A stretch of 64,000 nt of DNA from Raja brachyura. Its lineage: Eukaryota. The stretch spans positions 18,042,001-18,106,000 of the forward strand of contig OY740808.1 of the NCBI GenBank assembly GCA_963514005.1. Reading direction: 5' to 3'. Made by a program: the position numbers. This document shows, piece by piece, positions 16,601-19,600 of this stretch; position 1 is the stretch's first letter, and each line of letters starts with the position of its first letter.

Positions 16601-19600
16601 GGTAAGAAGAAAATACTTGATATTTATTCAACATGCAGATGACATGGTGTGGCGGAGGCATCGTGACTATCCAGTTATATCTCTGTGTTTGGGGGCAATT
16701 GTTACCCGAGACAAATAATTGGTCTTCATATTCAGAATGCAGCACAGATCTGGCCCCTGGTGAGGACAGGATTCCGTTCCTGAAAACTATTCATAACCCA
16801 GTCTGCTGGGTCAGAAATGTGGTCATGAACCAAGTCCCCGCCCGCGTGAAGATGCCTGCAGCAGCCATCGAATCCATCCCGCCTGTCTCCCAAACGCTCG
16901 GTTGTGCAAAGGTCAGGTGTCTGTAAACTGGGGCGGACCTGTTGTGTAATTCTATGGCCTTAATCTCTTCTCTCTGATGTGGTGATTTATGGCTTTTTAA
17001 TGTAGCAATCTCGCACGCTATTAAAGTGAGATTTAAGTATACATGTGAAAGAGATAACCAAACAAATATAATAGAATCTGGGCATCCGTGTTCTGCGCCT
17101 GACCTTTGAGTTGGTAGTCACTGTTTAAGATTATGTTTTGCATTTCCACAGAGACTGCTAATTGGTGAAATCATCACTCGAGTTGCAAAGCATGTCGTAG
17201 TCCTCTACCAACAGGTAACGGTTCTGCTCATAGAATAAACAACACTTTCTTCCAATGTGTGTAACAAATACATGTTAAATTTTAGAGTGGAAATGTCTCG
17301 GGTTCAGCCTGTGGTTACTGCAGTATTCATGAACCTCATTCAGTTCAGTGGCAGTGAAATGGAGCCTAGTCACCTTCATCTTGGTCTCTCTCTAATCCTT
17401 GACATGTTAGGCCGCAGAGCCACCGGAGATACGATCCGGAAAACAATCGCATCTCCGGCAACGTAAGAGATTGAAAAAACGTTTCCCCCGACCCCCACAT
17501 AAAACAAACCAGAGGACATTAACACAAACTTAAAACACACTAAAAATAACAAAAAATACTGAAAATAAACAGACTGTTGGTGAGGCTGCCATCGTGCAGC
17601 GCCCCCTGGTGAATCTCTGGAGAGAAGGAATGGGTGACGTATTGGGTTGAGACCCTTCTTCAGACCCTAAACATCGCCCACTCCTTCTCTCCAGAGATGT
17701 TGCCTGTCCCACTGAGTTACTCCAGCTTTTTGTGTCCATCTGCAGTTCCTACCTACACACCCAATCTTGGACTTGGCATATTAAGAGGATTTGTGAACTA
17801 TGCAAGCGTGGGTTTATGCAACTCGAATGGCCCTACCATAGGAGTCACCTGCACTGGACTGCAGTAAAAACCTATGTGGTTCATAAACCTTCAATGCCCT
17901 TCAAGTCTGCAGTACTCCCTTAGCATGGCCCAAATGCAATTCTGTAACTCAATTATGTTTGATTCTCAACAGGAGCAATAAATAAAAGGTTGTGGCTTAA
18001 CTGATATTAGAGAGTTAGAGAGTTTTAACATTAGTCATGTATTTTTAATTACTTCCCATTTGTCTGGCCACAATCACATATAGGAGTGTCTTTTTGAACC
18101 TCCTCTAAAATTATAACATTTTATCCATATTCCAGATTATTGTTAAGTTTTCATGAACATTAGCTTTAATTGTTTAATTAACATTATTGCACAGTAATTA
18201 ATTTATCCAACACGTTGCAGGATTGGGGGATGAGGTGGATTACAATGGGTGTGAATTTCATGAAAACTGACAAAAACAAGATAATTTATTTTGGTTGCCT
18301 TTGATTTCATTGCCCCCTCCCAATGTACGCTCCAATCTTGCAAAGAGCAACGTCTTGTGGTTGATCCCAATTCCCGATTATGTTAGAAGGTTTGTATGGG
18401 AATTGGGATCAACCACAAGACGTTGCTCTTTGCAAGATTGGAGCGTACATTGGGAGGGGGCAATGAAATCAAAGGCAACCAAAATAAATTATCTTGTTTT
18501 TGTCAGTTTTCATGAAATTCACACCCATTGTAATCCACCTCATCCCCCAATCCTGCAACGTGTTGGATAAATTAATTACTGTGCAATAATGTTAATTAAA
18601 CAATTAAAGCTAATGTTCATGAAAACTTAACAATAATCTGGAATATGGATAAAATGTTATAATTTTAGAGGAGGTTCAAAAAGACACTCCTATATGTGAT
18701 TGTGGCCAGACAAATGGGAAGTAATTAAAAATACATGACTAATGTTAAAACTCTCTAACTCTCTAATATCAGTTAAGCCACAACCTTTTATTTATTGCTC
18801 CTGTTGAGAATCAAACATAATTGAGTTACAGAATTGCATTTGGGCCATGCTAAGGGAGTACTGCAGACTTGAAGGGCATTGAAGGTTTATGAACCACATA
18901 GGTTTTTACTGCAGTCCAGTGCAGGTGACTCCTATGGTAGGGCCATTCGAGTTGCATAAACCCACGCTTGCATAGTTCACAAATCCTCTTAATATGCCAA
19001 GTCCAAGATTGGGTGTGTAGGTAGGAACTGCAGATGGACACAAAAAGCTGGAGTAACTCAGTGGGACAGGCAACATCTCTGGAGAGAAGGAGTGGGCGAT
19101 GTTTAGGGTCTGAAGAAGGGTCTCAACCCAATACGTCACCCATTCCTTCTCTCCAGAGATTCACCAGGGGGCGCTGCACGATGGCAGCCTCACCAACAGT
19201 CTGTTTATTTTCAGTATTTTTTGTTATTTTTAGTGTGTTTTAAGTTTGTGTTAATGTCCTCTGGTTTGTTTTATGTGGGGGTCGGGGGAAACGTTTTTTC
19301 AATCTCTTACGTTGCCGGAGATGCGATTGTTTTCCGGATCGTATCTCCGGTGGCTCTGCGGCCTAACATGGTGGAGCTGGAGGCTTTGCTCGGGACTGAA
19401 TTTGAGCCCCACTGTGGGGACATGGACTTACCATTGGCGCCGATCCCTTGCCTGGGATCGACGCTGTGTCCACGGCCTGAGTATTTCACCATCGAGCAGC
19501 TTGCAGTCTTGGGAAGAGACCGATGTCGGGAACTCCAAACAAAGCAGAAGGTTTTGACCCGCAGTCTGATTGTTATGAAAAGGGTTCAGAATTCAGATAG

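What the first reader, a model, noticed from the sequence alone, without database searches (positions are those of the whole stretch)
17403..19370. Apparently perfect ~2-kb palindrome (973-bp arms, 22-bp loop) inside a CLUH-like intron
Seen: arms 17403-18375 and 18398-19370 are reverse complements with no indel (constant coordinate sum 36773, identical mirror ORFs) and no mismatch in the segments compared by eye. The spacer is GATTATGTTAGAAGGTTTGTAT. It fills ~74% of intron 17215-19889. About 600 bp of each arm is not recognisable TE, so this is not two inverted copies of one repeat. Established: long near-perfect palindromes are unstable (cruciforms) and rare in vertebrate genomes, and long intronic dsRNA is a substrate for ADAR, Dicer and dsRNA sensors. 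Inference: each CLUH-like pre-mRNA would fold a ~970-bp hairpin containing two repeat-family segments, a possible hairpin endo-siRNA source against those repeats. Arm identity implies a very recent origin or arm-to-arm conversion.
Basis: partly seen in the sequence, partly recalled or inferred. Interest (0 to 1): 0.85.

Follow-up and report, generated by a model that had tools for sequence, protein, structure and literature searches.

The report
Perfect 2-kb palindrome in skate CLUH intron
A 973-base stretch of an intron of a skate's CLUH gene has been copied backwards right next to itself, making a flawless 2-kb palindrome that is either a very young replication accident or an assembly error, with no sign that it has a job.

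Summary
Arms 17403-18375 and 18398-19370 are 973 nt, 100% complementary, with a 22-nt spacer. They lie in a 2675-nt phase-0 intron of a skate CLUH gene.

New here is the polarity. A repeat element runs unbroken across the right arm border in 4 of 5 independent copies. The same matches stop exactly at 17403 on the left arm. So the right arm plus its flank is the template, and the left arm is a derived inverted copy placed 22 nt upstream. It is not a mobile foldback element and not two copies of one repeat.

The best reading is a young fold-back (inverted) duplication made by template switching during replication. A 7-nt match between the new junction and the spacer is a suggestive trace (chance about 1.8%, post hoc).

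An assembly or library artefact cannot be excluded without raw reads. No collection here holds skate DNA.

The transcript would fold into a 973-bp stem. The endo-siRNA role is untested and, judging by mouse data, unlikely. This is a rare structure of a known kind, of modest interest.

The parts
17152..17214 (+). CLUH exon upstream of the intron (residues 796-816 of the Leucoraja erinacea protein P0006)
   Evidence: tblastn 100% over 21 aa. Pfam eIF3_p135 profile 44-65. AG at 17150-17151 and GT at 17215-17216 read.
17215..19889 (+). Phase-0 intron of CLUH, 2675 nt, holding the palindrome
   Evidence: Bounded by the exons mapped. Splice dinucleotides read.
17215..17402 (+). Left flank: unique, CpG-poor intron sequence that ends at the novel junction 17402/17403
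   Evidence: No complementarity to the right flank (9 of 60). CpG 2 observed against 7.7 expected. No repeat hits.
17403..18375 (+). Left arm: the derived, inverted copy of 18398-19370
   Evidence: 100% reverse complement. Repeat-derived protein matches stop exactly at 17403 in 3 of 3 matches that reach it.
18376..18397 (+). 22-nt asymmetric spacer, the hairpin loop
   Evidence: Positions 18380-18386 repeat the 7 nt found at 17404-17410.
18398..19370 (+). Right arm: the template (ancestral) copy, continuous with the right flank
   Evidence: 4 of 5 independent copies of the repeat align straight through 19370/19371.
19026..19160 (+). Fragment of an interspersed repeat core with its own 35-nt hairpin (mirror image at 17613-17747)
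   Evidence: At least 9 further copies in the window at 65-90%. Internal inverted repeat 19075-19109/19126-19160 at 86%.
19186..19538 (+). Second repeat element, CpG-rich, which crosses the right arm border at 19370. Its mirror copy 17403-17587 is cut off at the junction.
   Evidence: phmmer, blastp and tblastn matches to P0001-P0005. CpG observed/expected about 1.0 inside the arm and 0.6 just outside, against 0.1-0.26 elsewhere in the intron.
19890..20126 (+). CLUH exon downstream of the intron (residues about 817-895)
   Evidence: 97% identity to L. erinacea CLUH. Pfam eIF3_p135 profile 64-139. tblastn.

Best explanation
This is a young fold-back (inverted) duplication. 973 bp of the CLUH intron (18398-19370: about 625 bp of unique intron, one repeat core and the first part of a second repeat element) was copied in reverse orientation and laid down 22 bp upstream of itself. 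That created one novel outer junction (17402/17403) and one central junction.

The most likely mechanism (inferred) is a two-step template switch at a replication fork moving leftward through the intron. The nascent strand left its template at the spacer, copied about 1 kb of the opposite strand behind the fork, then returned to its starting point and continued into 17402.

The copy is too young, or too often converted arm-to-arm, to have any difference.

In the sense pre-mRNA the two arms pair into a 973-bp perfect stem, which draws the two splice sites to about 700 nt of unpaired sequence. I infer that it is spliced out and degraded with the intron, probably after A-to-I editing. I also infer that it is neutral or mildly harmful rather than a small-RNA gene.

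Shown: the structure, the polarity and the fold. Inferred: the mechanism, the age and the fate of the RNA.
For: - Perfect 973-nt arms with a 22-nt spacer.
- Unique in the window.
- Polarity: a repeat family known from 5 independent translated copies (P0001-P0005, 47-70% identity) is continuous across 19370/19371 in 4 of 5. The fifth protein ends before the border.
- On the left arm the same matches end exactly at 17403 in 3 of 3 that reach it.
- A CpG-rich block spans the right border but not the left.
- The flanks are not complementary (9 of 60), and there is no N anywhere in the window. The palindrome therefore sits inside continuous sequence with two different unique flanks. A simple whole-read foldback, which is symmetric about the middle of the read (PMC12338684, Methods read), does not produce that.
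- 7 nt at 17404-17410 recur in the spacer at 18380-18386. Chance is 363 of 20000 random window 20-mers and 377 of 20000 shuffled spacers. This fits microhomology-guided return of the strand.
- The fold has 973 of 973 arm pairs. Intron minimum free energy is -2090.9 kcal/mol, against -517.9 without the left arm.
- Splice sites and exons are intact and collinear with L. erinacea CLUH residues 414-1306.
Against: - No reads, no second individual and no orthologous intron could be examined, so existence in the animal is unproven.
- Long perfect palindromes with short spacers are fragile in every system tested (review PMC7999016, passages).
- A survey of perfect inverted repeats with spacers of 8 bp or less found none with arms over 140 bp in the human genome (PMC13155455, passage). 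The prior for a real one is therefore low.
- The microhomology was noticed post hoc. It does not fit the simplest ancestor (left flank joined directly to the whole spacer); it needs 4 nt (18376-18379) to be filler.
- Template switching by a polymerase in vitro would leave the same polarity and microhomology.
Confidence: 0.55

Rival explanations
1. Assembly or library artefact. A chimeric molecule or read (polymerase strand switch during library preparation or amplification, or a mis-joined fold-back read used for consensus or gap closure) put an inverted copy of 18398-19370 into the assembly. The animal's intron would be about 1.7 kb with no left arm.
For: - Exact identity of the arms is what an artefact gives.
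- Fold-back reads are a documented artefact of long-read data: about 0.55-0.6% of nanopore genomic reads, and often with no adapter sequence left at the centre (PMC12338684, passages).
- Whole-genome amplification makes many palindromic chimeras (Pacasus paper 10.1101/173872, abstract seen in the listing; PMC13265396, abstract).
- Real perfect palindromes of this size are very rare in vertebrates.
Against: - The described artefact is symmetric over the whole read. Here symmetry ends at 973 nt, and both flanks are different, unique sequence. Two novel junctions would therefore have to lie in one molecule and win the consensus.
- There is no gap (N) or contig end anywhere in the 64-kb window.
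- No other 100% duplicate is present in the window.
- PacBio HiFi data showed virtually no foldback reads.
- The sequencing platform of this assembly is unknown to me.
Confidence: 0.33
2. Functional hairpin-RNA locus. The palindrome is kept perfect by arm-to-arm gene conversion, because the CLUH intron hairpin is diced into endo-siRNAs that silence the two repeat families it carries.
For: - The sense transcript of a broadly needed gene would carry a perfect 973-bp stem that holds pieces of two repeat families in both orientations.
- Hairpin-RNA loci born by inverted duplication are known in Drosophila (PMC10317233, abstract seen).
- Long hairpins give siRNAs in mouse oocytes (cited in PMC6391682).
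Against: - About 64% of each arm (625 of 973 nt) is unique intron with nothing to target.
- Only 14 of 953 arm 21-mers have an exact copy elsewhere in the window.
- The duplication cuts the second repeat at an arbitrary point, as an accident would.
- In mouse somatic cells, long hairpins with single-stranded tails yield few siRNAs.
- No Rfam family reaches its threshold. The hits at the centre are sub-threshold miRNA-hairpin look-alikes at 53.8 against 65 bits or worse.
Confidence: 0.04
3. A foldback-type or long-terminal-inverted-repeat transposon inserted into the intron.
For: Geometry only: long inverted arms and a short middle.
Against: - There is no target-site duplication. The bases flanking the arms differ (printout).
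- The right 'terminus' is not an end. Another repeat runs through it in 4 of 5 copies.
- The inner arm has no second copy in the window.
- No transposase or other Pfam domain in the arm ORFs (0 families for 4 arm ORFs).
Confidence: 0.02

Closest known systems
Fold-back inversions / inverted duplications made by replication template switching (snap-back synthesis, FoSTeS/MMBIR-type events; small inverted triplications are a sister class, PMC13334657, abstract seen)
   Same: Two adjacent inverted copies with a short asymmetric spacer. One copy is continuous with its flank and the other ends at a novel junction. There is possible microhomology at the junction.
   Different: Most described cases are somatic or cancer events, large germline rearrangements, or yeast models. 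A clean 1-kb germline example inside a housekeeping-gene intron of a cartilaginous fish is not something I found described. It is a duplication, not a triplication: no third direct copy exists.
Fragile long palindromes: human palindromic AT-rich repeats (PATRR11/17/22, about 190-600 bp; PMC1851657, abstract seen) and inverted Alu pairs with spacers of 12 bp or less (PMC7999016)
   Same: A near-perfect or perfect palindrome of hundreds of bp with a short spacer. It is expected to extrude hairpins or cruciforms and to break.
   Different: The arms here are longer (973 bp) and not notably AT-rich (GC 0.37-0.50 by segment). The spacer is 22 nt. No rearrangement data exist.
Hairpin-RNA (hpRNA) / endo-siRNA loci and plant proto-MIRNA genes born by inverted duplication
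   Same: Origin by inverted duplication, and transcription into a long perfect hairpin.
   Different: Those loci copy their target gene. This one copies mostly unique intron plus arbitrary repeat fragments. It sits in an intron rather than in its own transcript. No small-RNA evidence exists.
Fold-back read artefacts of long-read sequencing (PMC12338684)
   Same: The strand flips back onto the same locus within 200 bp, and there is no adapter-like insert at the centre.
   Different: The artefact is symmetric about the middle of the read. Here the symmetry is confined to 973 nt between two unlike unique flanks.

Membership tests
Template-switch fold-back (inverted) duplication | Two adjacent copies in inverted orientation separated by a short spacer | tested here: met
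   973-nt arms, 100% complementary, 22-nt spacer.
Template-switch fold-back (inverted) duplication | One copy continuous with its flank (the template); the other ends at a novel junction | tested here: met
   The repeat is continuous across 19370/19371 in 4 of 5 copies. On the left arm it is truncated exactly at 17403 in 3 of 3 matches.
Template-switch fold-back (inverted) duplication | Microhomology or short templated filler at the junctions | tested here: inconclusive
   7 nt shared between 17404-17410 and 18380-18386. Chance is about 1.8%, but the match was found post hoc and needs 4 nt of filler.
Template-switch fold-back (inverted) duplication | Absent from the ancestral allele or orthologous locus | not testable with these tools
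Foldback / long-TIR transposon | Target-site duplication flanking the element | tested here: not met
   The bases on the two sides of the arms differ (junction printout).
Foldback / long-TIR transposon | Arm ends are the element's termini | tested here: not met
   Another repeat runs through the right 'terminus'.
Foldback / long-TIR transposon | Multiple genomic copies | tested here: inconclusive
   There is no second copy of the inner 625 nt in 64 kb. The genome was not available.
hpRNA / endo-siRNA locus | Transcribed long inverted repeat | not tested
   It lies in the sense strand of a CLUH intron, so transcription is inferred. No RNA data were available.
hpRNA / endo-siRNA locus | 21-23-nt Dicer products from the stem | not testable with these tools
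   No small-RNA data.
hpRNA / endo-siRNA locus | Stem homologous to identifiable targets | tested here: inconclusive
   14 of 953 arm 21-mers have exact copies elsewhere in the window, all in the repeat core. 625 of 973 nt have no counterpart.
Long-read fold-back artefact (Breakinator definition) | [quoted passage not shown] | tested here: met
   22-nt spacer.
Long-read fold-back artefact (Breakinator definition) | Symmetry about the middle of a single read, whole read palindromic | not testable with these tools
   No reads were available. In the assembly, symmetry ends after 973 nt with unlike flanks, which does not fit the simple form.
PATRR-like fragile palindrome | AT-rich arms | tested here: not met
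   GC is 0.37 (inner), 0.50 (repeat core) and 0.46 (outer).
CLU/CLUH gene | CLU central (eIF3_p135) domain followed by TPR, collinear with a named CLUH protein | tested here: met
   Pfam, exon by exon. 97% identity to L. erinacea CLUH for one exon. P0006 residues 414-1306 map in order to 2603-34023.

The most novel reading that the evidence does not exclude
The palindrome is a real germline feature that persists in skate populations. Arm-to-arm gene conversion keeps it perfect, and it acts as an intron-borne hairpin-RNA gene: every CLUH transcript delivers a 973-bp dsRNA that is diced into siRNAs against two repeat families. That would be a vertebrate counterpart of Drosophila hpRNA loci, caught at birth.
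Probability: 0.04. Interest if true: 0.7.

Novelty: new member of a known kind. Interest (0 to 1): 0.3.

Why it matters
If it is real, this is a rare, freshly made long perfect palindrome in a vertebrate germline. Its template, copy and junctions can all still be read. It would be a natural specimen of fold-back duplication by template switching, and a test of how long such a structure survives in a slowly evolving genome. It would also put a near-1-kb perfect dsRNA into the transcript of a housekeeping gene, which makes it a natural probe for ADAR editing and dsRNA sensing in cartilaginous fish.

If it is an artefact, it marks an assembly error inside a gene model. It would also be a type of error (an interior inverted duplication with unlike flanks) that standard fold-back filters are not built to catch.

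Tried and rejected
- **Quasi-repeats across the right border.** A local alignment of 19161-19370 against 19371-19620 scored 16-19, no better than shuffles (mean about 16.5, maximum 24). This test for repeat continuity failed and was replaced by the translated-copy test.
- **Other copies of the outer repeat in the window.** None were found by blastn. Only the core at 19026-19160 recurs.
- **Rfam.** No family reached its threshold over the region or over the window. The sub-threshold miRNA hits at the centre are what any perfect hairpin gives.
- **tRNA scan.** 0 genes.
- **Pfam on four arm ORFs.** 0 families. The 'mirror ORFs' are a trivial result of the symmetry.
- **Transposon reading.** Rejected by the missing target-site duplication and the border test.
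- **Simplest ancestor.** Left flank joined to the whole spacer, with return by the 7-nt match, predicts 4 extra bases at 17402/17403 that are not there. Either those 4 nt of the spacer are filler or the match is chance.
- **Not done: spliced model.** The exons were searched one by one and the joined CLUH model was left out.
- **Not done: DNA collections.** Presence of the palindrome elsewhere stayed unchecked.
- **Not done: supplements.** No supplementary files were opened. Tables S3-S4 of PMC13155455 may list long perfect inverted repeats in other vertebrates.

Full report
**1. The observation**

The palindrome is exactly as described. The repeat finder and a direct string test give arms 17403-18375 and 18398-19370, 973 nt each. 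They are perfect reverse complements with no indel, around a 22-nt asymmetric spacer (18376-18397).

Outward, the symmetry ends abruptly: 9 of the next 60 positions pair.

Nothing comparable exists in the window.
- With arms 500 nt apart or less, the only other inverted repeats are three pairs of 31-35 nt at 86-90%. Two of these are the internal hairpin of a repeat core inside the arms and its mirror image.
- The longest distant inverted pair is 230 nt at 98% between dispersed repeat copies.
- The window has no N.

**2. The setting**

Exon by exon, the flanking ORFs match consecutive parts of Pfam eIF3_p135, the CLU central domain:

| Window ORF | Profile positions |
|---|---|
| 16089-16301 | 2-44 |
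| 17110-17238 | 44-65 |
| 19872-20189 | 64-139 |
| 20667-20786 | 142-165 |

- The exon at 19890-20126 is 97% identical to 'clustered mitochondria protein homolog' of the little skate Leucoraja erinacea. It is 74-81% identical to those of other rays and sharks.
- That skate protein (P0006) maps collinearly, residues 414-1306, onto 2603-34023 of the + strand.
- The window therefore comes from a skate close to, but probably not identical with, L. erinacea.
- The palindrome lies in a phase-0 intron (17215-19889, 2675 nt) between residues 816 and 817.
- The joined spliced model was not built or searched.
- The palindrome starts 188 nt after the donor site and ends 519 nt before the acceptor site, so no splice signal is touched.

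**3. What the arms are made of**

Reading the right arm from the centre outward:
- About 625 nt of unique, CpG-poor intron (5 CpG against 21.8 expected). It has no other copy in the window.
- A 135-nt fragment of an interspersed repeat core (19026-19160). This core has at least 9 other copies in the window at 65-90%.
- A CpG-rich piece (19161-19370, CpG observed/expected about 1.0).

**4. The key new result: polarity**

The CpG-rich block does not stop at the arm border. It continues to about 19560, with observed/expected 0.6, against 0.09-0.26 in the rest of the intron.

To test continuity I translated the open frame 19107-19643, which crosses the border (residue 88 ends at 19370), and searched protein collections.

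One search found P0001. The exhaustive representative search found 5 proteins at E of 0.001 or less. These are evidently junk ORFs from other copies of the same repeat, at 47-70% identity.
- In blastp, 4 of the 5 align without a break across residues 88/89.
- The fifth protein ends before the border and is uninformative.
- In tblastn against the window, the same proteins run past 19370 on the right, to 19385-19532.
- On the left arm their matches end exactly at 17403 in 3 of 3 cases that reach it.

Hence the right arm and its flank are the original arrangement. The left arm is a copy, and 17402/17403 is a novel junction.

This rules out a mobile foldback element: no target-site duplication is present either (printout). 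It also rules out two inverted insertions of one repeat.

**5. Mechanism (inferred)**

The structure is flank, then inverted copy, then short spacer, then template. That is what a two-step template switch gives: a nascent strand moving leftward leaves its template near the spacer, copies the opposite strand for 973 nt, and returns.

There is one possible trace. The 7 nt at 17404-17410, the first bases of the copy, recur in the spacer at 18380-18386.
- Such a match between a 20-mer at the junction and the spacer arises in 363 of 20000 random window 20-mers.
- It arises in 377 of 20000 shuffled spacers, so chance is about 1.8%, noticed post hoc.
- It fits an ancestor in which the left flank through 17410 ran directly on into 18387 and onward, with 18376-18379 as filler.
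- It does not fit an ancestor in which the whole spacer followed 17402.
- Only the orthologous intron of another skate can decide.

**6. Real or artefact?**

This cannot be settled here.

For an artefact:
- The arms are perfectly identical.
- Fold-back reads and amplification palindromes are documented (PMC12338684, Methods and passages; abstracts of 10.1101/173872 and PMC13265396 in the listings).
- Real perfect palindromes are rare. In a survey with spacers of 8 bp or less, the longest in the human genome had 140-bp arms (PMC13155455, passage).

Against a simple artefact:
- The described fold-back read is symmetric about the middle of the read. Here the symmetry is confined to 973 nt between two unlike unique flanks, inside gap-free sequence.
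- One molecule would therefore need two novel junctions and would still have to carry the consensus.
- No other 100% duplicate occurs in the window.

I put real at about 0.6 and artefact at about 0.33.

**7. Age and stability**

With zero differences in 973 bp and an assumed 1e-8 substitutions per site per generation, the 95% upper bound is about 1.5e5 generations. So 'perfect' alone does not mean brand new.

However, palindromes with longer arms, higher identity and shorter spacers are the most recombinogenic in bacteria, yeast and human cells. Inverted Alus with a 12-bp spacer stall forks, while a 52-bp spacer relieves this in eukaryotes (PMC7999016, passages). A 22-nt spacer with 973-bp arms should therefore be short-lived, unless it is protected or converted.

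**8. What it would do**

- The sense RNA folds all 973 arm pairs (-1894.6 kcal/mol).
- The intron's minimum free energy goes from -517.9 without the left arm to -2090.9 kcal/mol with it.
- From established knowledge (recalled), long perfect nuclear dsRNA is a substrate for ADAR, and spliced introns are degraded.
- The siRNA idea is weak. 625 of 973 nt have no target. Only 14 of 953 arm 21-mers recur exactly in the window.
- In mouse fibroblasts, long hairpins with single-stranded tails give few siRNAs unless the oocyte Dicer isoform is present (PMC6391682, passages). Whether skate Dicer behaves likewise is unknown.
- Rfam gives only sub-threshold miRNA-hairpin look-alikes at the centre (best 53.8 bits against a threshold of 65).

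**9. Comparison and verdict**

The closest known kinds are:
- fold-back inverted duplications made by template switching;
- fragile long palindromes (PATRRs, close inverted Alus);
- inverted-duplication-born hairpin-RNA loci;
- mammalian 'inverted duplicates', among which large hairpins are disfavoured (PMC5398296, passages).

It meets the structural and polarity criteria of the first kind. It fails the criteria of a foldback transposon. Nothing is testable for the hpRNA class.

Verdict:
- It is a new member of a known kind.
- Interest is modest (0.3) until reads show that it exists in the animal.

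Noticed in passing
window 41733-42122: Tandem array of about 10 or more units with a 29-nt period (22-29 nt spacing), copies 64-81% alike. It overlaps long open frames on the + strand (41425-42425) that have no Pfam match.
   Followed up: partly
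window 7659-8135, 43393-43865 (direct) and 53852-54318 (inverted): Three copies of one interspersed element of about 450-480 nt. The pair 7758-8135 / 53852-54227 is 97-98% identical and so young. The third copy is 89-92% identical.
   Followed up: no
window 15514-15584, 23516-23586 (and inverted copies at 3917-4021, 14490-14601): tRNA-like SINE heads (92% between two copies). ARAGORN calls no tRNA gene in the window and Rfam has no hit at threshold.
   Followed up: partly
window 51582-52277 and 55238-55681 (+): Two exon-bearing ORFs of a GCFC-domain gene (Pfam PF07842, E 2e-12 and 2e-31), downstream of CLUH on the same strand.
   Followed up: partly
window 43928-44419 (-): Reverse-transcriptase fragment (Pfam RVT_1, E 2.4e-10), a decayed retroelement between the two genes.
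   Followed up: no
window 38174-38806 (-): Weak, sub-threshold SRR1-domain match (21.7 bits against a cut-off of 24). Possibly an exon of a gene on the opposite strand just after the end of CLUH.
   Followed up: no
window 17564, 17977, 17981 (+): The derived left arm puts three AATAAA motifs into the sense strand of the intron (the right arm has one AATAAA and three ATTAAA). These are possible premature polyadenylation signals if the palindrome is real.
   Followed up: no
window 19075-19160 (mirror 17613-17698); also 5010-5095: The common repeat core carries its own 31-35-nt imperfect hairpin (86-90%). This explains the sub-threshold miRNA-family hits inside the arms.
   Followed up: partly
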